A stretch of 18,498 nt of DNA, taken from IMG/VR virus record IMGVR_UViG_2657245081_000006; one strand, 5' to 3'. The notes beneath the pieces were generated by a model. That model did not search any database and was not told the origin of the DNA. It saw only the letters and a program-made list of their open reading frames with translations. Shown here in pieces: positions 1,675 to 12,095 of the stretch. Both the position numbers and the translations under genes were made by a program. Position 1 is the stretch's first letter, and the number at the start of each line of letters is the position of its first letter. The DNA is from a virus. Its lineage: Duplodnaviria > Heunggongvirae > Uroviricota > Caudoviricetes.

Positions 1675-1684
1675 NNNNNNNNNN
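1675..1684. other. assembly gap (run of 10 N)
   Basis: Literal nnnnnnnnnn in the sequence; it interrupts the 5S rRNA gene where the rest of the rrn operon would be expected. Confidence 1.
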
Positions 1685-5497: not shown

Positions 5498-6307
5498 TCA
5501 ATGAACGGTATCGAGCAGCTTTAACAGCTCAGGGAATCGGGATTCGAAGAAATGCGGCTGCGTCTCACGCGGATTTGCGGGACTGGTGATGTTCTTGCCG
5601 AACATGCAGCCTTTCGCCGTCAGCGACCAGAATTTTTTGATGTTGTTAATCCCGGTACGGCTGTATCGTTCGCGCTGCTCGACGATCCCCAGCTTCACCA
5701 TCTGGTGATATGCCTGATTAGCCGTCAGGCGGATACCATACTGCTTCAGCAGTGCACTCAGCGACAGCGTCGGGCGGCTTGAGCCATCAGGCGCGTCAGC
5801 AGGTGCATCAATGGCATAGCGCGGTGCCAGATTCGGTAAGCCAACAGCCTCCTGGAGTTTCTGACAGGCACCAAGCACTGAAGAGTTAGACAGATTTAAC
5901 TCCCGGCGCATAAAGTCCAGCAGGATCACGCCAGCCTGCATCTTGTCAGCAGCCTGTCCGGATAACTTTTCCGGCGCGCTGGTTACCATATCGAAAGTAC
6001 GGATCACCTTCAGATGGAATGACGGGCTGATCCACATTGCATAGGCATACACCAGTTCCTTACAGACATACGTTCCCCGTTCATTTCCCCCATGAATCAC
6101 ACTCACCGGGTCAACACCCAAATTCTGGGTGTTGGTTAATTCATGAACAAGCTCAACAGTTTGTTGGCTGGAAAGAAACTTTCCTGGCTCCTTGGTTCTG
6201 GCATTTGCACCAGATGCTACTGCTGCGCGATGCAGATCGTTCAGGCTGTAACGCCCATAAGCATCACGACGAACTTCAATACCATCAATGACCATCAGAT
6301 TATTCAT
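5498..6307 (-). CDS. KilA-N domain protein / putative antirepressor, 269 aa
   Basis: N-terminal ...YSLNDLHRAA...KPGKFL...GTYVCKELVYAYAMWISPSFHLKVIRTFD is the KilA-N signature; AGGAGA 6 nt upstream of the ATG at 6307. Confidence 0.8.
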   Translation of the reverse strand: MNNLMVIDGIEVRRDAYGRYSLNDLHRAAVASGANARTKEPGKFLSSQQTVELVHELTNTQNLGVDPVSVIHGGNERGTYVCKELVYAYAMWISPSFHLKVIRTFDMVTSAPEKLSGQAADKMQAGVILLDFMRRELNLSNSSVLGACQKLQEAVGLPNLAPRYAIDAPADAPDGSSRPTLSLSALLKQYGIRLTANQAYHQMVKLGIVEQRERYSRTGINNIKKFWSLTAKGCMFGKNITSPANPRETQPHFFESRFPELLKLLDTVH

Positions 6308-6326: not shown

Positions 6327-6716
6327 TCAGGCAGCTGCACCCGCCGTTTTCTCGTACTTACTGATAGTGATCTCGACCTTCCCTTCCGGGATAACCGGTC
6401 CCCACTCCACCAGCATTCTTTTCACCTGACTGTCGTCTTCCCACACCCCCGCGTGGGTCAGGGCGTCAAACAGCGCCTTGTTATAGTTGTCCAGATCGCG
6501 GATCCTGTTATCCGGAGGAAACAACACGATCTCCACTGAAGCAGGTGCCGACGTTGGTTTCGGCAGACGACGTAACTGCTCAACTATTGCTGCACACGCC
6601 GCGCTCTGGAATTTGCGCCCCGCCGCGCTTATCAGGCTCTTACCTGCAAACGCCACTTTGTTGGGGTGTCGCCAGTACGTGTTCACGCTGGGCGGAAAAG
6701 GCAGTATTAGCTTCAT
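6327..6716 (-). CDS. rusA: Holliday-junction resolvase RusA, 129 aa
   Basis: MKLILPFPPSVNTYWRH...RDLDNYNKALFDALTHAGVWEDDSQV matches the RusA pattern (PxxPxxNxYxR, DLDN, D-D); ATGA overlap with the upstream gene. Confidence 0.85.
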   Translation of the reverse strand: MKLILPFPPSVNTYWRHPNKVAFAGKSLISAAGRKFQSAACAAIVEQLRRLPKPTSAPASVEIVLFPPDNRIRDLDNYNKALFDALTHAGVWEDDSQVKRMLVEWGPVIPEGKVEITISKYEKTAGAAA

Positions 6717-7039
6717 ACTTTCAGGCCCCTCTCATGTAACCAGTGGGCTGCACGCAACCTGGCGTTCTCCTCACCGGCAAGCAGTGCGCGGATGATACCG
6801 ACCGCCTCGCTGTCGTCGTCCTTCACCGCGGTATGAAGCGTGATGCCCCGGGCCACGCCACGCTTTATCGTGATGACGCCTTTTTTCTCCAGTGCGCGAA
6901 GATGCTCCACCGCTGCATTCACTGAACGGTATCCCAGCATGGTTGCCACCTCCTGATTGGTTGGCGGGAAGCCACGTTCTTTCTGATAAGAAATCAGCAT
7001 ATCCAGCACCTGCTGCTGGCATTGAGTTAACGTCGTCAT
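6713..7039 (-). CDS. LexA N-terminal DNA-binding-domain-like protein (no peptidase domain), 108 aa
   Basis: LTQCQQQVLDMLISYQKERGFPPTNQEVATMLGYRSVNAAVEHLRALEKKGVI resembles the LexA winged-helix DBD; ATGA overlaps at both ends. Confidence 0.6.
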   Translation of the reverse strand: MTTLTQCQQQVLDMLISYQKERGFPPTNQEVATMLGYRSVNAAVEHLRALEKKGVITIKRGVARGITLHTAVKDDDSEAVGIIRALLAGEENARLRAAHWLHERGLKV

Positions 7040-7689
7040 GCCGCCATCTCCCTGACCAGTTTTTCTGCCTGCTGGCGAACCTGCGCCAGAAAGGCCTCAC
7101 CACATGCCTCAAGTTCATCGCGCCCGATGTAGCTGATTGCCGGTCCCTTCCAGGTCTTGTCGAAAACAGCAATAGCACCAGCGAAGAAAGCGCCTGTCGG
7201 CACCTGCTTCTCATCCTTCGGGATAAACCAGGCAGGCAGTTCAAAACCAATACGCCCGCGAATAAAAGCAATATGATCTGCATCTTCCGGCCACCACACT
7301 TCGCTGGTGGCAGCTTTGATCAGGAAAACATAGCGCCCGCCTTTATCACGCATGGCACTGGCATGCTTCATGATGTAACGCATGCCGGTGATGTATTGCC
7401 CCTCATGCTGACTGGCGCGGCTGTATGGGGGATTACCAAAGGCAGCACCTTTAAGCTCCGCAAGGCGTTCTGACCAGTCATGCGCCAGCGCGTTGTCTTC
7501 CGCCGTGTAATACGCAGCACATTTGGCGTTATCACCGTCAGTGAACAGATCCAGAACAAACGGGCCAAACAGGGTGTTAATTCCCCAGAAAATGTTGTCC
7601 GGCGTGCGCCACTGATCGCCCACTTCCTTCAGTTCATGGGCTGGTTTGTTCCGCAGTTCCGCCAGCGCCTGGCAATATTTATTACTCAT
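7036..7689 (-). CDS. phage N6-adenine DNA methyltransferase (Dam family, NPPY), 217 aa
   Basis: DQWRTPDNIF...LDLFTDGDNAKC...AFGNPPYSR; start taken at ATG 7687-7689 overlapping the upstream stop (TAATG). Track ORF 7036..7722 has 11 extra N-terminal codons. Confidence 0.85.
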   Translation of the reverse strand: MSNKYCQALAELRNKPAHELKEVGDQWRTPDNIFWGINTLFGPFVLDLFTDGDNAKCAAYYTAEDNALAHDWSERLAELKGAAFGNPPYSRASQHEGQYITGMRYIMKHASAMRDKGGRYVFLIKAATSEVWWPEDADHIAFIRGRIGFELPAWFIPKDEKQVPTGAFFAGAIAVFDKTWKGPAISYIGRDELEACGEAFLAQVRQQAEKLVREMAA

Positions 7690-8183
7690 TAAGCCCCCAC
7701 GTAATTCCCTGAGAGATACCACTCTTCACCTGATGCAGCCCGCTTACTGCTTTTCCGTAAACACCGTTCACGACGCGCCAGAAAATTGTTTCGTTCTGGC
7801 TGGGAGTGGCTTTCACGGAATGCCGCCATCCACACCGTTGCAGCACGACGGTATAAGCCCCTCGACTCCAGTTCTTCAGCCTGGCGGGTCAGGCACAAAA
7901 TCACCCGGGGGTCGTTAGTGCCGACATAGAACTTGCGCACAGGTCTGGTTTCACGAACTGGTTGTGGTTCCGGCTCCTGCGCTCTCTCAGTCAGGCGCGA
8001 GAAATGTCTGCGTGTATCTCCTTCACAACGGTGAGCCACACGCCCACTCTGACGTAACTTGCTTGCTGACTGCAGAACGCGCTGCCGTGAGTAACCTGCA
8101 AAAGCATCCGCAATGTCTCCGGAAGTACAGCCCGGATGGGCTTCAATGAATTTCTGAACTTCATTCAAAATACTCATGCTCAC
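7689..8183 (-). CDS. PerC-like transcriptional regulator (N-terminal wHTH-like region plus LYRRAATVWMAAF motif), about 162-164 aa
   Basis: C-terminal ...ESRGLYRRAATVWMAAF resembles the PerC family. First codon is GTG at 8181-8183 (overlapping the O-like stop); alternative ATG at 8177. Confidence 0.55.
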   Translation of the reverse strand: MSMSILNEVQKFIEAHPGCTSGDIADAFAGYSRQRVLQSASKLRQSGRVAHRCEGDTRRHFSRLTERAQEPEPQPVRETRPVRKFYVGTNDPRVILCLTRQAEELESRGLYRRAATVWMAAFRESHSQPERNNFLARRERCLRKSSKRAASGEEWYLSGNYVGA

Positions 8184-9172
8184 CCCCTGAATCCTGCCGG
8201 GATCTGGCTGTAGTCCACGTTGTCGTAACTGGATTTGAAATATGGGTCTTCGCGTTTTTCTGTGTATGTGCTGACGGACGGCGATAAGCGCAGGGAAAGC
8301 TCATCCCATTTTTCCCGCAGCTTCGACGGGCTGAGCACGTTACGGCACCAGAACGGATCGCGGCTGACGCGGCTGTACATCTCGCAGATTTGTTTGTGAG
8401 TACGACCATCCTGCACACACATCAGGCGAATTTCGTTTGCCCAGGCTGTCCAGTTCGGTTCTTTGGGACGAACCACCTCGCCGTCACATTCGGCGGCCTG
8501 CTCGTACAGGGCGATGATTTTTTTCCAGAGCCACTGTGCGCAGGTCAAATCATCCTGCGTTCCCCACTGGCGCTTTTTAGGGCTGAATACAACCGCATCA
8601 GGATGGCGAGTTAAAAACTCCTGTTCAGCCGTTTGCGTGTCCGGTTGCGAAGCGTCCGGACGAGAAGAGGTTTTATTCTCTGTAGTAATCTCTGTTGTAT
8701 TCTCTGTAAGATCATTGGGCCATTTTGACCCGATGACAGCGTGTCGTTTTGAACCAATGGATCGTGTCATTTTGCGCCCATCCATCAGGTCACTTTGACC
8801 CGATGGAGAAGTGCATTTTGACCTGATGGATTCGTTCACTTTGACCTCTTCTAAAAGCTCACTTTCATAGTTGATCGTGTAGAAGTTGGTCATGTCACGC
8901 TTCGATTTATTGAGTTGCTCGCGACGCAAAACCCCAAGTGATTTCAGGCTTGCAAATGTGCGTTTCAGAGTGGACTCTGACCAGAACGGAAACTGCTCCA
9001 GCCACTGTTCTGTCGTGTTATAAACCCAGCGAATTCCGCCATGCTCAGTGCCTGAATTCGTTTCATTCAGCCAGTAATGAAGCTGCTGCAACACAATTGC
9101 CTCATTCAGACCAATACGGCATGCAAGATCACGATTTATCACAATGGGCTGGGATGTCATTAACAGGCTCAT
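8180..9172 (-). CDS. replication initiator / replisome organizer (lambda O-like; ori iterons inside the gene), 330 aa
   Basis: N-terminal HTH-like region, repetitive S/T-rich linker encoded by the iterons, C-terminal W/C-rich helical domain; position after cII; ATGA overlaps on both sides. Confidence 0.75.
   Translation of the reverse strand: MSLLMTSQPIVINRDLACRIGLNEAIVLQQLHYWLNETNSGTEHGGIRWVYNTTEQWLEQFPFWSESTLKRTFASLKSLGVLRREQLNKSKRDMTNFYTINYESELLEEVKVNESIRSKCTSPSGQSDLMDGRKMTRSIGSKRHAVIGSKWPNDLTENTTEITTENKTSSRPDASQPDTQTAEQEFLTRHPDAVVFSPKKRQWGTQDDLTCAQWLWKKIIALYEQAAECDGEVVRPKEPNWTAWANEIRLMCVQDGRTHKQICEMYSRVSRDPFWCRNVLSPSKLREKWDELSLRLSPSVSTYTEKREDPYFKSSYDNVDYSQIPAGFRG
8721..8851. repeat. replication-origin iterons: about 6 copies of a CAYTTTGACCYGATGG-like unit at 23-24 bp spacing
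   Basis: Copies begin at 8721 (cattttgacccgatga), 8745 (degenerate), 8768 (degenerate), 8791 (cactttgacccgatgga), 8814 (cattttgacctgatgga), 8837 (cactttgacctc). Confidence 0.75.
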
Positions 9173-9393
9173 GCCGCACCTCCGAGATGCTTCATGTTTT
9201 TTCCGGAGCGAAAGGCTATAAGCGGCATACTGACGCGGTAATTACGGCCCAGCGGTTCACAAATCACCTTCTGACATTCACGGTCAACCAGGCTAACACG
9301 TAGAACATGCCCTGCAGGCGTGGTGTACCACTGACCGGGGCGAGGACAACGGAAAGTCTGATTGGTAAATCGTTTGAAAATATTCCGGATCAT
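9169..9393 (-). CDS. hypothetical small protein, 74 aa, translationally coupled between the Rha-domain gene and the O-like gene
   Basis: ATGA overlaps at both ends (9390-9393 and 9169-9172); no family recognised. Confidence 0.5.
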   Translation of the reverse strand: MIRNIFKRFTNQTFRCPRPGQWYTTPAGHVLRVSLVDRECQKVICEPLGRNYRVSMPLIAFRSGKNMKHLGGAA

Positions 9394-10538
9394 TTGCGCC
9401 CCCTTACCTCTGAAGAGTTCAGCGACGAATGAATAAGACGGGCAAGAAATGCCGCATCGTTAATTCGGTCATACAGACTTACAGCCAGAGGTGATTCAGC
9501 TTTTTCCAGCATGGGATAAAGCTGCTGCAACCAGACCTGATGAATTGATGAAATGTAGGAATAGAGAACGCTGGCGTTATGTGCAACGTCGCTCGGTACA
9601 GCGGGCTTTGAAAGCTGTTTCTCCATCTGGTTAAAGGCATTGATGTATGCCTCTTTGAACTGGGCAGCACGTTTACCCGTGAAACCCATAGCAAGAAACG
9701 CAAAGCCGTCGCGGGTTATTTGATAGCAAGGTAGTTTGCGGCCTGTGCAATCGGTGTAATCACTCACCGAAAAATTGCGGGCAGTGAATGATGCGGAACA
9801 TTCAAGCGTGCGGATCTTTTTCAGTACATCGTCATGACGTTTGGAGAAGAAGTTGGCAACAGCCAGGGATGAAGTAACAGCCTGACCATCAACGATGGCA
9901 ATTTCAGGTTGAGTGAGGGTTGGGATCGTAGCCATGATGGCAGTCTCCGATAACAGTGAATTACCTTCACCACCGGAAACGCCAATTTCGCTGGTGGTGA
10001 ACTGAACGGGGTTGGCGTAACCGGCGTTATCGGAAACCGGCGCACCTTTCGGTGCCCCCGTCCAGCCCACCATAATTTGGGTGTGCACAGACGCAGACGA
10101 TAAAAAAGACGCTGGCGCGTCATATATCGCCGATAACATTTCCAGGACGCCAATCCCGACACCCGCTTTATAAGGTGCCTGAACAGTGTAACGTCCCGGA
10201 ATGGCAGAATCAATGTGCTGGTGGTCCTTCACACTCAACAAAATCACGCCTGAATTTCCACAAAGGACTAAAGCACTCATGCGGGTAGTCTTTGCGAAGA
10301 TAGATAACGCGCTGTGTTTCTGGCTCCCAACGAATAACATGGACATAAAGCCCTCTTCCGTCACGAAACCAGCGGTTAAGTTCCTGCACAACTCGCCCCC
10401 CACAGTCAGGTAAAGTTCTCTGTGGTTACTTACAGCCAGGTGATTTGGTAATCTGCATTCATGCCGTAACAACAGGTGTTCAGCGACGCTGACCACCAGC
10501 TGTTGCGACAAACGGTTATTTGCCGTTAAACTGTTCAT
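9390..10538 (-). CDS. protein with C-terminal Rha (phage regulatory protein Rha) domain and an unrecognised about 200-aa N-terminal region, 382 aa; alternative start at 9935 would give a 181-aa Rha-only protein
   Basis: Residues about 211-308, IVDGQAVTSSLAVANFFSKRHDDVLKKI...YQITRDGFAFLAMGFTGKRAAQFKEAYINAFNQME, are the Rha signature. ATG 10536-10538 overlaps the cII-like stop (ATGA). Confidence 0.6.
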   Translation of the reverse strand: MNSLTANNRLSQQLVVSVAEHLLLRHECRLPNHLAVSNHRELYLTVGGELCRNLTAGFVTEEGFMSMLFVGSQKHSALSIFAKTTRMSALVLCGNSGVILLSVKDHQHIDSAIPGRYTVQAPYKAGVGIGVLEMLSAIYDAPASFLSSASVHTQIMVGWTGAPKGAPVSDNAGYANPVQFTTSEIGVSGGEGNSLLSETAIMATIPTLTQPEIAIVDGQAVTSSLAVANFFSKRHDDVLKKIRTLECSASFTARNFSVSDYTDCTGRKLPCYQITRDGFAFLAMGFTGKRAAQFKEAYINAFNQMEKQLSKPAVPSDVAHNASVLYSYISSIHQVWLQQLYPMLEKAESPLAVSLYDRINDAAFLARLIHSSLNSSEVRGRK

Positions 10539-11098
10539 GCGTTAGTTTCTCCACAGACACAAAACGCCACGACGCCCGGAGCTGCACACTCGCGGGCGTC
10601 ACTCTTTTCTGGAGCGCAAAAGATTTTGTAGACCAGTGCTGCATGCTCCTGGAGCTTCGAAATTGACAGATACAACTCATCATTAATTGCTGTCTGCTCG
10701 TGTGGCTCCACTACCCCATCTTCGATTGCCGAACGAATCTGCTTTGAGTAACTCCCGATCTGTTCGATGACTTCCAGCAGGCGCTGGTTTATATCGGCGT
10801 TCTCTACTTCCTCAAGTTCAGGAAGCGATACAAACACCCCACCAGCAGACTGTGCGACAGCATCCGCAATGTAGTGAGTGCCAGCCGCGCGCTGTAAAAT
10901 CATTGCCCATCCCAGCGGGAAAATCTGATCGCCATCTGCACGAAGGCGGTTGAATAAAGCGTTCTCTGTTACATCCAGCCACTCAGCAGCTTCAGCGTAA
11001 CCTCCCGGCAACGCCGCGATAGTTTTTCTGACAGCTTTCACGTACCACTCAGGCTGTTTTTCTACTTTCCAGTGATGCTTACCCACGGTTAGCCTCAT
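10535..11098 (-). CDS. CII-like regulator (YdaT / CP76-type CII family), 187 aa
   Basis: Second gene of the rightward operon directly after cro; size and helical C-terminal part resemble the YdaT-type CII analogs of Rac-like prophages. Confidence 0.6.
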   Translation of the reverse strand: MRLTVGKHHWKVEKQPEWYVKAVRKTIAALPGGYAEAAEWLDVTENALFNRLRADGDQIFPLGWAMILQRAAGTHYIADAVAQSAGGVFVSLPELEEVENADINQRLLEVIEQIGSYSKQIRSAIEDGVVEPHEQTAINDELYLSISKLQEHAALVYKIFCAPEKSDARECAAPGVVAFCVCGETNA

Positions 11099-11129: not shown

Positions 11130-11330
11130 TTAATCTTTCGGATAGATATCCGGTCTTAAGTCAGATTTCGTAATTGCACCTGACGTGCATTGCTCAAGTT
11201 TTTTAGCCAGCACAAAACTGGCTTTTTTATAACCATTGAAAACCAGCCGTAAGTAGCCTGGTGTTGAGCCAACTTTTCCGGCCAACTCGCCCTGCTGTTC
11301 TTTGGTTAAAGAGTCCCAATACGCTTTCAT
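11130..11330 (-). CDS. cro: Cro-like repressor (YdaS-type HTH), 66 aa
   Basis: MKAYWDSLTKEQQGELAGKVGSTPGYLRLVFNGYKKASFVLAKKLEQCTSGAITKSDLRPDIYPKD; GGAGG 10 nt upstream of the ATG at 11328-11330; divergent from cI. The 167-aa track ORF is an unsupported upstream extension. Confidence 0.75.
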   Translation of the reverse strand: MKAYWDSLTKEQQGELAGKVGSTPGYLRLVFNGYKKASFVLAKKLEQCTSGAITKSDLRPDIYPKD

Positions 11331-11420
11331 ACAATATGTACCTCCGATATACATATTACATGATTGAGATGAACCTTCAAGATACTTGTACCCTATCGGT
11401 ACAAAGGTTTTAATTTCGTT
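11331..11420. promoter_or_regulatory. OR region: divergent PR (toward cro) and PRM (toward cI) with palindromic operator candidates
   Basis: Palindromes ATGTA-N9-TACAT (11336-11354) and TTGTACC-N5-GGTACAA (11386-11404). PR on minus: -35 TTGAAG (11375-11380), 16-nt spacer, -10 TAATAT (11353-11358). PRM on plus: -35 TTGTAC (11386-11391), 17 nt, -10 TTTAAT (11409-11414), giving a near-leaderless cI mRNA. Confidence 0.55.
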
Positions 11421-12095
11421 ATGAAAACAGTCCATGACATCCGGCGGTCTAACGCCAGAAAACTGAGAGATGGTGTTGGCGGGAATTCTTCCTTTGCCAC
11501 CATGATTGATCGCGAGCCAACCCAGACCAGCAGGTTTATGGGAGATGGTGCTACTAAAAATATCGGTGACAGCATGGCACGGCACATCGAAAAATGTTTC
11601 GACCTGCCTGTCGGATGGCTTGATCAAGAACACCAGACAACAAACATCACAAAAAAACCTGATGTTTCAATTACTAACAAACAAATAACGTTAGTCCCTG
11701 TCATATCATGGGTACAGGCCGGAGCATGGAAAGAAGTTGGCTATTCTGAGGTTGATTTGAGCACAGCAGAAACTTATCCCTGCCCTGTACCCTGTGGCGA
11801 AATGACTTATATCTTGCGGGTGATTGGTGATTCAATGATTGATGAGTACCGCCCGGGAGACATGATTTTTGTTGATCCTGAAGTCCCTGCCTGCCACGGT
11901 GACGACGTTATTGCATTGATGCACGATACAGGCGAAACCACCTTCAAGCGGTTGATAGAAGATGGAACACAGCGTTACCTCAAAGCATTAAACCCAAACT
12001 GGCCTGAACCTTACATTAAGATCAACGGTAATTGCTCTATAATTGGTACAGTGATTTTCTCAGGAAAACCAAGAAGATACAAAATAAAGGCCTAA
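11421..12095 (+). CDS. cI: CI-like prophage repressor, HTH plus S24 (LexA-like) autopeptidase domain, 224 aa
   Basis: C-terminal VPVISWVQAGAW...RVIGDSM...PGDMIFVD...GDDVIALMHDTGETTFKRL is the S24 peptidase signature; N-terminal HTH; no SD, consistent with a leaderless PRM transcript. Confidence 0.9.
   Translation: MKTVHDIRRSNARKLRDGVGGNSSFATMIDREPTQTSRFMGDGATKNIGDSMARHIEKCFDLPVGWLDQEHQTTNITKKPDVSITNKQITLVPVISWVQAGAWKEVGYSEVDLSTAETYPCPVPCGEMTYILRVIGDSMIDEYRPGDMIFVDPEVPACHGDDVIALMHDTGETTFKRLIEDGTQRYLKALNPNWPEPYIKINGNCSIIGTVIFSGKPRRYKIKA

What the first reader, a model, noticed from the sequence alone, without database searches (positions are those of the whole stretch)
8721..8851. Origin iterons embedded in the O-like gene with strict 23-bp periodicity
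Six CAYTTTGACCYGATGG-like units begin at 8721, 8745, 8768, 8791, 8814 and 8837, about two helical turns apart, inside the coding sequence of the initiator, exactly as in the lambda O gene/ori arrangement. This pins the prophage ori and identifies the 330-aa protein as the iteron-binding initiator. The central two copies are degenerate, which may mark a decaying origin in a defective prophage.
Basis: seen in the sequence. Interest (0 to 1): 0.4.

Follow-up and report, generated by a model that had tools for sequence, protein, structure and literature searches.

The report
Phage replication origin inside initiator gene
The repeats are real and are almost certainly the replication origin of a lambda-like prophage, sitting inside the gene of the protein that binds them; this is a familiar arrangement, but a second set of 12-base repeats beside them is conserved across very distant bacteria.

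Summary
Six repeat units start at 8721, 8745, 8768, 8791, 8814 and 8837, spaced 24, 23, 23, 23 and 23 bp. They lie inside a 330-aa gene on the minus strand (8180-9172).

The unit is better described as a 13-bp imperfect dyad, GGTCAAAATGACC on the coding strand.

Three lines of evidence show selection on the DNA rather than on the protein:
- The 23-bp period puts successive copies in different reading frames.
- Third-codon-position identity to phage HannyBb is 85% in the iterons, against 42-50% in the two folded domains.
- The encoded peptide is predicted to be disordered.

In relatives from many phyla, 64 of 80 genes show a 22-24 bp period at the same place. The outer dyad bases change symmetrically between lineages. 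Base 3 covaries with residue 67 of the predicted recognition helix (Ser with T, Asp with G, Lys/Arg with A).

Directly downstream lie three 12-mers, ACAGAGAnTAC (8673-8707). This is the least stable stretch of the gene, and the motif is kept from E. coli to Lactobacillus.

The C-terminal domain is homologous to lambda O. The N-terminal domain is not: it is a different winged helix. No P-like gene follows.

The "decaying origin" idea is not supported, because phage mEp460_4F5 carries an identical origin. No replication or binding assay was done.

The parts
8180..9172 (-). Initiator gene, 330 aa (PHROG 391 'replication initiation O-like'); it contains the origin.
   Evidence: ORF list and translation. 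phrog_391 E 1e-101 over the full length. No Pfam or NCBIfam family matches.
8858..9172 (-). N-terminal winged-helix DNA-binding domain (residues 1-105). The predicted recognition helix is residues 66-79.
   Evidence: AlphaFold2 pLDDT about 80-94 for residues 11-80 and 77-78 for 81-110, with the order H-H-beta-beta-H-H-beta-beta. The top Foldseek PDB hits are the RepA_N-type plasmid initiator N-terminal domains 4pql, 4pt7 and 5kbj, though only at E 0.009-0.016. Residue 67 covaries with iteron base 3.
8648..8842 (-). Region coding for the disordered interdomain linker (residues 111-175). It carries most of the iteron array and all three 12-mers.
   Evidence: pLDDT below 50 for residues 111-175. 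Third-codon-position identity to HannyBb is 85% in the iterons and 94% in the 12-mers, against 50% and 42% in the N- and C-terminal domains.
8834..8846 (-). Iteron 1 (first in the coding direction): GGTCAAAGTGAAC.
8811..8823 (-). Iteron 2: GGTCAAAATGCAC.
8788..8800 (-). Iteron 3: GGTCAAAGTGACC. Its flanks extend the dyad (CCATCrGGTCA...TGACCyGATGG).
   Evidence: (inverted repeat I1)
8765..8777 (-). Iteron 4, weak: GCGCAAAATGACA (10 of 13 positions match the family core).
   Evidence: The same position holds a good copy in HannyBb.
8742..8754 (-). Iteron 5, weak: GTTCAAAACGACA (10 of 13). It is kept in this form in the diverged clade.
8718..8730 (-). Iteron 6, next to the 12-mers: GGTCAAAATGGCC. 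It is invariant in all close relatives and survives in the 93-bp deletion variant.
8673..8707 (-). Three tandem 12-mers ACAGAGAnTAC (+ strand TATTCTCTGTAG and variants). This is the presumed DNA unwinding element, and it encodes the peptide TENTTEITTEN.
   Evidence: Repeats found (4 hits in the window against 0.65 expected; the 3 in this array are adjacent). GC is 33-37%. It is the least stable 40-bp stretch of the gene: dG -44.6 against a mean of -55.6 (SD 3.7). It is conserved across phyla with frozen synonymous codons.
8294..8635 (-). C-terminal domain homologous to the C-terminal domain of lambda O (residues 180-293).
   Evidence: hhalign against lambda O: probability 95.9%, E 6e-9, 41% identity over 101 columns. 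This half of the gene is 97% identical in phages SfII and SfIV, which have a different N-terminal domain.

Best explanation
This is a lambda-type replication origin embedded in the linker-coding part of its own initiator gene.

Proposed mechanism (inferred, not assayed):
1. Dimers of the N-terminal winged-helix domain bind the six 13-bp dyad iterons (GGTCAAAATGACC type). The iterons are spaced 23 bp apart, about two helical turns.
2. Together the bound dimers form an O-some-like nucleoprotein complex.
3. That complex stresses and opens the adjacent array of three 12-mers (ACAGAGAnTAC, 8673-8707), which is the least stable DNA in the gene.
4. The lambda-O-type C-terminal domain then brings in the host helicase machinery. 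The phage encodes no P-like loader, so this probably happens directly or through host DnaC.

What the comparisons show directly:
- The repeats are real and non-random.
- Selection acts on the DNA rather than on the peptide.
- The arrangement is deeply conserved.
- The iteron half-sites change symmetrically between lineages.
- One residue of the predicted recognition helix covaries with one iteron base.

What is inferred by analogy with lambda O and RepA_N initiators: the binding itself, the unwinding, helicase recruitment and origin firing.
For: 1. The repeats are beyond chance and clustered.

2. The constraint is on the DNA:
- The units fall in reading frames 2, 1, 0, 2, 1, 1.
- The encoded residues 111-175 are predicted disordered.
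- Third-codon identity to HannyBb is 84.8% in the iterons and 93.8% in the 12-mers, against 49.5% and 42.1% in the two folded domains.

3. Family-wide architecture:
- In 80 loci from GTDB genomes the best self-similarity lag in this region is 23 in 49 and 22-24 in 64.
- This includes Pantoea, Pseudomonas, Comamonas, Acinetobacter, Photobacterium, Hydrogenimonas, Clostridiales, Limosilactobacillus and Staphylococcus.
- It is also seen in phages 96 and mv4, a Bacteroides phage and a Vibrio phage.

4. Dyad covariation: the cores are GGT..ACC, GGA..TCC, GGG..CCC, GTG..CAC and GAT..ATC around an almost invariant CAAnnTG centre. Positions 3/11 are complementary in 47 of 57 genes and positions 1/13 in 50 of 57.

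5. Protein-DNA covariation: residue 67, at the start of helix 66-79, has the highest mutual information with iteron base 3 of 96 residues scanned (1.12 bits; the next best is 0.75). The pairings are Ser-T 24, Asp-G 12 and Lys/Arg-A 5.

6. Module swapping: SfII has the same C-terminal half (97% identity) but a different N-terminal domain, and carries different 15-bp repeats at the same place. SfV has yet another N-terminal domain and another repeat set.

7. The 12-mer array:
- It is the least stable stretch of the gene.
- Spacing is 12 bp in 112 of 119 intervals, and the array starts 15-18 bp after the centre of the last iteron in 38 of 57 genes.
- Glu is coded by GAG in 93 of 95 cases inside the array, against 278 of 587 outside. 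Thr is coded by ACC in 0 of 194 cases inside, against 194 of 516 outside.
- Where copies are 11 bp apart they are read in different frames.

8. Lambda comparison: same gene offset, same order of iterons then A+T-rich region, and a homologous C-terminal domain.

9. [quoted passage not shown]
Against: - There is no experimental evidence for binding, unwinding or autonomous replication of this sequence, or of any member of this N-terminal domain family, in the literature I could search.
- The fold match to RepA_N initiators is weak (E 0.009-0.016).
- No Pfam model covers the N-terminal domain.
- The covariation statistics ignore phylogeny, so related sequences inflate them.
- No helicase loader is encoded nearby, so the recruitment step is conjecture.
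- The 12-mer region is only moderately A+T-rich (33-37% GC).
- What reads the 12-mers is unknown.
Confidence: 0.85

Rival explanations
1. The repeats are initiator-binding sites, but their main role is autoregulation, copy control, handcuffing or exclusion of related phages. Strand opening would take place elsewhere.
For: Iterons in plasmids also act in copy control and handcuffing (established knowledge; papers listed). Cloned lambda origin fragments cause exclusion phenotypes (PMC3349717). Some copies are weak and their number varies (2 to 6).
Against: The array is always directly followed, at a constrained distance of 15-18 bp, by the least stable and most conserved DNA of the gene. This is the layout of a firing origin in lambda. 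No other iteron-like cluster exists in the window.
Confidence: 0.07
2. The origin is a decayed, non-functional remnant in a defective prophage.
For: Two of the six copies match the core at only 10 of 13 positions. Only one complete E. coli genome covers 80% or more of the window. A truncated variant that lost four iterons exists in a Qin-like cryptic prophage.
Against: The origin is identical in the complete phage genome mEp460_4F5. The diverged phages HannyBb and PhiR42_1 keep six units with their own weak copies. Synonymous sites show strong purifying selection. The gene is intact. In Stx phages weakly bound extra iterons are still required (PMC7466680). The apparent prophage end lies at an N-gap.
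Confidence: 0.06
3. The periodicity reflects a repeated peptide in the linker, under protein-level selection, with no role for the DNA.
For: The linker shows recurring peptides (SIRSK, SIGSK, VIGSK; TENTTEITTE), and TExTTE is invariant in the protein alignment.
Against: A 23-bp period cannot keep one reading frame. Third-codon positions are more conserved here than in the folded domains. Synonymous codons in the 12-mers are frozen, and 11-bp-spaced copies are read in different frames. The peptide is predicted disordered.
Confidence: 0.02

Closest known systems
Phage lambda ori inside gene O (O protein, four iterons plus an A+T-rich tract)
   Same: The origin lies in the middle of the initiator gene, in the part coding for the interdomain linker. 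It consists of direct repeats with internal dyad symmetry 20-24 bp apart, followed in the direction of transcription by an easily melted stretch. The C-terminal domains are homologous. The gene sits in the cro-cII-O early rightward operon.
   Different: The N-terminal DNA-binding domain does not match Pfam Phage_rep_O, whereas lambda O matches it at E 5.7e-36. There are six iterons with a 13-bp core instead of four of 18 bp. The melting region is a regular array of three 12-mers. No P gene follows.
Six-iteron origins of Stx phages 933W and P27 (PMC7466680)
   Same: Six iterons in the O gene. The copies furthest from the A+T-rich tract bind weakly but are still needed. The number of copies differs between related phages.
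   Different: Those phages have true lambda-type O and P proteins and lambda-type iteron sequences. Here the DNA-binding domain and iteron sequence are unrelated to lambda's.
RepA_N plasmid initiators (pSK41, pTZ2162; PDB 4pql, 4pt7, 5kbj) and the PLE RepA
   Same: These are the best structural matches of the N-terminal domain. RepA_N iterons are described as semi-palindromic direct repeats whose inverted halves converge on a poly-A tract (PMC7145576), which is exactly the GGTCA-AAA-TGACC form seen here. The C-terminal domains are exchangeable and host-specific. From my own knowledge, the RepA_N origin also lies within the rep gene.
   Different: There is no sequence match to Pfam RepA_N or DnaD_N, and the Foldseek E-values are weak. 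Here the C-terminal domain is of the lambda O type.
Bacterial oriC unwinding elements (13-mers, DnaA-trios) and Rep-bound DUE repeats of iteron plasmids
   Same: A short tandem array of three units of about one helical turn sits directly beside the initiator-binding sites.
   Different: The sequence is different and only moderately A+T-rich. Recognition of the 12-mers by any protein has not been shown.

Membership tests
Lambda-type in-gene origin (ori-lambda architecture) | The origin lies within the initiator gene, between the parts coding for the DNA-binding and C-terminal domains. | tested here: met
   Iterons are at codons 107-151 and 12-mers at codons 155-166. The folded N-terminal domain ends near residue 105, and the lambda-O-like domain covers residues 180-293. 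Lambda iterons are at gene offsets 348-432.
Lambda-type in-gene origin (ori-lambda architecture) | Several direct repeats, each with internal dyad symmetry, about two helical turns apart. | tested here: met
   Six units are spaced 24, 23, 23, 23, 23 bp. The core GGTCAAAATGACC matches its own reverse complement at 10 of 13 positions.
Lambda-type in-gene origin (ori-lambda architecture) | An easily melted A+T-rich stretch directly downstream of the iterons in the direction of transcription. | tested here: met
   The stretch 8671-8710 is the least stable 40-bp stretch of the gene and less stable than 98.7% of all 40-bp stretches in the 18.5-kb window. GC is 33-37%.
Lambda-type in-gene origin (ori-lambda architecture) | The initiator binds the iterons, and the element supports autonomous replication. 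| not testable with these tools
   Only indirect support is available: residue 67 covaries with base 3, the half-sites change symmetrically, and the N-terminal domain and repeats are exchanged together as a unit.
Lambda O protein family | N-terminal domain matches Pfam PF04492 (Phage_rep_O). | tested here: not met
   No hit even at E up to 1, whereas lambda O scores E 5.7e-36. hhalign aligns only the C-terminal part.
Lambda O protein family | C-terminal domain (the P-interacting domain in lambda) is homologous to that of lambda O. | tested here: met
   hhalign probability 95.9%, E 6e-9, 41% identity, query residues 180-293 against lambda O residues 168-269.
Lambda O protein family | A partner P-type helicase loader is encoded immediately downstream. 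| tested here: not met
   The downstream genes are a PerC-like regulator, Dam, a LexA-DNA-binding-domain protein and RusA. None of the window ORFs scanned gave a P, DnaC or DnaB hit. The order is the same in SfII, SfV and mEp460_4F5.
RepA_N / DnaD-N-like winged-helix initiators | Sequence match to Pfam RepA_N (PF06970) or DnaD_N (PF21984). | tested here: not met
   No hit for the window protein or for four distant relatives. By contrast the SfII and SfV N-terminal domains hit HTH_36 and, weakly, DnaD_N.
RepA_N / DnaD-N-like winged-helix initiators | Fold of the N-terminal domain. | tested here: inconclusive
   The top three Foldseek entries are RepA_N initiator N-terminal domains (4pql, 4pt7, 5kbj). 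However E is 0.009-0.016, TM is 0.53-0.58 on the target, and many generic winged-helix regulators score close behind.
RepA_N / DnaD-N-like winged-helix initiators | [quoted passage not shown] | tested here: met
   The form GGTCA-AAA-TGACC is seen in the window and across the family. The definition is taken from PMC7145576.
PHROG 391 (replication initiation O-like) | Full-length profile match. | tested here: met
   E 1e-101, residues 1-330 against profile positions 1-298 of 298.

The most novel reading that the evidence does not exclude
The ACAGAGAnTAC 12-mer array would be a sequence-specific origin-opening element shared by one very large family of phage initiators across Proteobacteria, Firmicutes and, in variant form, Bacteroidota. 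The conserved part of the winged-helix initiator would read it, probably as single-stranded DNA, much as DnaA reads DnaA-trios. Combined with the simple recognition code at residue 67 (Ser with T, Asp with G, Lys/Arg with A), this would give a predictive rule set for locating, and re-targeting, the origins of thousands of temperate phages from sequence alone.
Probability: 0.3. Interest if true: 0.65.

Novelty: new member of a known kind. Interest (0 to 1): 0.42.

Why it matters
- It locates the replication origin of a common group of E. coli and Shigella temperate phages and prophages, including the mEp460_4F5 and HannyBb types. Their initiator has no Pfam model and is annotated inconsistently ('primosomal protein I', 'O-like', 'hypothetical').
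- It shows that the lambda rule, where the DNA-binding domain and its iterons travel together inside the gene, extends to a different winged-helix domain found in phages of several phyla.
- It yields two testable items: a one-residue, one-base specificity rule, and a deeply conserved 12-mer array whose reader is unknown.
- It is a clear example of DNA signals placed in the coding sequence of a disordered protein linker. This matters for codon-based analyses and for synthetic recoding of phage genomes.

Tried and rejected
- Pfam and NCBIfam scans of the initiator gave nothing.
- A sequence search of the PDB with a family profile gave only a meaningless hit at E 0.44.
- A full-text search for the 12-mer strings found only unrelated primers.
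- Searches for literature on in-gene origins of this family, on mEp460 and on PF09524 found no description of this origin.
- My first codon test defined the 12-mer region by the DNA string CAGAGA and was therefore circular. I repeated it with the region defined only by the peptide pattern.
- I first read the MFS-transporter gene at 1-1401 as the prophage boundary, which would mean the prophage is truncated right after Q. I withdrew this on finding the 10-N gap at 1675-1684.
- The short core TCAYTTTGACC with 2 mismatches is not by itself enriched in the window (15 hits against 11 expected). The dyad pattern with 2 mismatches is not enriched either (5 against 2.8). The significance comes from the longer unit and from the clustering and phasing.
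- A vague likeness between the purine-rich A+T tract of lambda (ACAAAAGA repeats, one CAGAGAAT) and the 12-mers was noted but is too weak to count as evidence.

Full report
**1. The observation**

| Start | Sequence |
|---|---|
| 8721 | CATTTTGACCCGATGA |
| 8745 | CGTTTTGAACCAATGG |
| 8768 | CATTTTGCGCCCATCC |
| 8791 | CACTTTGACCCGATGG |
| 8814 | CATTTTGACCTGATGG |
| 8837 | CACTTTGACCTCTTCT |

- Spacing is 24, 23, 23, 23, 23 bp.
- Tandem Repeats Finder reports a period of 23, and the repeat finder puts five copies in register.
All hits fall within 110 bp.
- The units lie in the 330-aa ORF 8180-9172 on the minus strand, at codons 107-151.

**2. A better description of the unit**

- On the coding strand each unit has a 13-bp imperfect dyad, GGTCAAAATGACC. 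The six cores are at 8834-8846, 8811-8823, 8788-8800, 8765-8777, 8742-8754 and 8718-8730.
- The weak copies are those at 8765-8777 and 8742-8754, each matching 10 of 13 positions.
- Directly downstream in the coding direction are three tandem 12-mers, ACAGAGAnTAC, at 8673-8707.
- This is the GC minimum of the gene and its least stable 40-bp stretch: dG -44.6 against a mean of -55.6 with SD 3.7.

**3. The gene**

- The protein matches PHROG 391 'replication initiation O-like' over its full length (E 1e-101). It matches no Pfam or NCBIfam model.
- AlphaFold2 with a 22-sequence alignment gives a confident winged-helix domain for residues 11-105 and a disordered stretch for residues 111-175. That disordered stretch is encoded by most of the iteron array and all three 12-mers.
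- The best PDB fold matches are the N-terminal domains of the RepA_N-type staphylococcal plasmid initiators (4pql, 4pt7, 5kbj), but only weakly (E 0.009-0.016).
- The C-terminal part (residues 180-293) is homologous to the C-terminal domain of lambda O: hhalign probability 95.9%, E 6e-9, 41% identity.
- The N-terminal domain is not lambda-like. Lambda O matches Pfam Phage_rep_O at E 5.7e-36 and this protein does not match it at all.
- The gene sits in a lambdoid early operon: an S24 repressor gene divergent from cro-like and cII-like genes, then a Rha/Ash gene, a 74-aa ORF and the initiator.
- Downstream come a PerC-like regulator, Dam, a LexA-DNA-binding-domain protein, RusA, KilA-N, DUF968 and Q. 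There is no P, DnaC or DnaB homologue.

**4. Selection acts on the DNA, not on the peptide**

- A 23-bp period puts the copies in frames 2, 1, 0, 2, 1, 1.
- Identity to phage HannyBb (78% nucleotide identity overall) by region:

| Region | Third-codon-position identity |
|---|---|
| N-terminal domain | 49.5% |
| C-terminal domain | 42.1% |
| Iterons | 84.8% |
| 12-mers | 93.8% |

- In an alignment of five close relatives, iteron 6 and the three 12-mers that follow are base-for-base invariant.

**5. Evidence from relatives**

- The N-terminal domain has more than 2,400 relatives in the protein database.
- A scan of GTDB genomes returned 80 loci, from Enterobacterales to Pseudomonas, Comamonas, Acinetobacter, Photobacterium, Hydrogenimonas, Bacillota and others.
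- In the region just after the winged-helix domain, the best self-similarity lag among 31 lags tried is 23 in 49 loci, 22-24 in 64, and 12 in six.
- The units always have the form xxxCAAnnTGx'x'x'. The outer triplets change symmetrically between lineages:
  - GGT..ACC in Enterobacterales
  - GGA..TCC in some Pantoea
  - GGG..CCC or GTG..CAC in Pseudomonas, Comamonas and Acinetobacter
  - GAT..ATC in Limosilactobacillus
- Positions 3 and 11 are complementary in 47 of 57 genes.
- The architecture is also present in more distant phages with about 31-51% identity in the domain: Staphylococcus phage 96, Lactobacillus phage mv4, a Bacteroides phage and a Vibrio phage.

**6. A protein-DNA specificity signal**

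- Of 96 residues scanned, residue 67 has the highest mutual information with iteron base 3: 1.12 bits, with the next best at 0.75. No permutation out of 10,000 reached this value.
- Residue 67 is the second residue of predicted helix 66-79, the second helix of the helix-turn-helix.
- The pairings are Ser with T (24), Asp with G (12) and Lys or Arg with A (5).
- The Asp-G pairing recurs in gamma-, beta- and epsilon-proteobacterial hosts. The test does not correct for phylogeny.
- The N-terminal domain and its repeats are also exchanged together. SfII shares the C-terminal half at 97% identity but has another N-terminal domain and different 15-bp repeats at the same place. SfV has a third N-terminal domain, a third repeat set and its own 3 x 12-bp array.
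- Together these points make it very likely that this protein's N-terminal domain binds these iterons as a dimer.

**7. The 12-mer array**

- 57 of 86 genes have two to five copies of CAGA[GT][AG] at 11-13 bp spacing. Three copies is the commonest number, and spacing is 12 bp in 112 of 119 intervals.
- The array starts 15-18 bp after the centre of the last iteron in 38 of the 57 genes.
- The motif stays the same while the iteron flanks change.
- With the region defined purely by the peptide pattern TExx-TExx, Glu is coded by GAG in 93 of 95 cases, against 278 of 587 elsewhere in the same genes. Thr is never coded by ACC (0 of 194), against 194 of 516 elsewhere.
- In seven loci some copies are 11 bp apart and are therefore read in different frames; in L064 all three frames are used.
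- So this too is a DNA element. I found no description of it by sequence in the searchable literature. What reads it remains unexplained.

**8. Comparison with lambda**

- The lambda record annotates four iterons at gene offsets 348-432, spaced 20, 24 and 23 bp, followed by the A+T-rich tract. Here the iterons are at offsets 320-452 and are followed by the 12-mers.
- Work on lambda and Stx phages (PMC7466680) reports that:
  - Stx phages have six iterons, of which the distal two bind weakly yet are required;
  - two iterons next to the A+T-rich tract suffice in vitro;
  - O protein binds single-stranded A+T-rich DNA.
- RepA_N initiators bind semi-palindromic direct repeats converging on a poly-A tract (PMC7145576), which is the form found here.
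- The element therefore works like ori-lambda. It uses a RepA_N/DnaD-like rather than a lambda-O-like DNA-binding domain, joined to a lambda-O-type C-terminal domain.
- The same N-terminal domain is joined to PF09524 in mv4 and to a DnaB_2 domain in Staphylococcus phage 96. PF09524 has been related to the lambda O C-terminus by HHpred (PMC5509034).

**9. The 'decaying origin' idea**

- The origin in the window is identical to that of the complete phage genome mEp460_4F5.
- The weak copy at 8742-8754 is almost unchanged in the diverged clade. In that clade the copy equivalent to 8765-8777 is good and the first copy is weak.
- Copy number does vary. A Qin-like prophage has lost exactly 93 bp (24 + 3 x 23, in frame), keeping the first and last iterons and the 12-mers.
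- Whether the prophage in the window is defective cannot be decided. The apparent junction with a host MFS-transporter gene is a run of 10 N at 1675-1684, and matches in complete E. coli genomes begin at 1685.

**10. Verdict**

- The origin and initiator interpretation is well supported by comparative evidence, but no replication or binding assay has been done.
- The lambda analogy holds for the layout and the C-terminal domain, not for the DNA-binding domain.
- The decay idea is not supported.
- As an instance this is an ordinary kind of element. The family-wide 23-bp phasing, the residue-base covariation and the conserved 12-mer array are the parts worth following up.

Noticed in passing
window 1675-1684: There is a run of 10 N, which is a scaffold gap. 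It lies between an MFS-transporter gene (1-1401) and the prophage part. Matches in complete E. coli genomes start at 1685, so the two sides may not be truly adjacent.
   Followed up: partly
window 6327-8183: No helicase loader or helicase gene follows the initiator. Instead there is a winged-helix plus PerC-like regulator (7689-8183), Dam (7036-7722), a LexA DNA-binding domain without the protease domain (6713-7039) and RusA (6327-6716). Phages SfII, SfV and mEp460_4F5 have the same order.
   Followed up: partly
L092 3270-3460 (E. coli Qin-like prophage, next to DicB and YdaT-like genes): A natural variant of the same origin has an exact 93-bp in-frame deletion (24 + 3 x 23) that removes four iterons. 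The breakpoints lie in the repeated GAATCCATC. The last iteron and all three 12-mers are kept.
   Followed up: yes
L004 3400-3560 (SfV orf39) and L003 3499-3646 (SfII gene 41): Other N-terminal domain types joined to related C-termini carry their own repeat sets at the same gene position. SfV has about 24-bp repeats plus 3 x 12-bp TGACTGGTTCT. SfII has 15-bp GATTTTGACGGGTCA repeats.
   Followed up: partly
window 9390-10538: A 382-aa ORF combines an Ash domain and a Rha domain. It sits between the cII-like gene (10535-11098) and a 74-aa ORF of unknown function (9169-9393, phrog_1153) just upstream of the initiator.
   Followed up: no
L088, L089 and the Pantoea loci L028-L049: The same winged-helix domain, iterons and 12-mer module is joined to at least three different C-terminal domains: the lambda-O type, PF09524 (Phg_2220_C) and PF07261 (DnaB_2).
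   Followed up: partly
window 11130-11633 and 11421-12095: The longest cro-side ORF (167 aa, GTG start, with a weak YdaS-like helix-turn-helix at its C-terminus) overlaps the start of the divergent S24 repressor gene by about 200 bp. The real start is probably internal, which would leave an operator region near 11330-11420.
   Followed up: no
window 6276-6297: There is a short tandem repeat, TCAATACCA x 2.3, at the start of the KilA-N gene, beside RusA.
   Followed up: no
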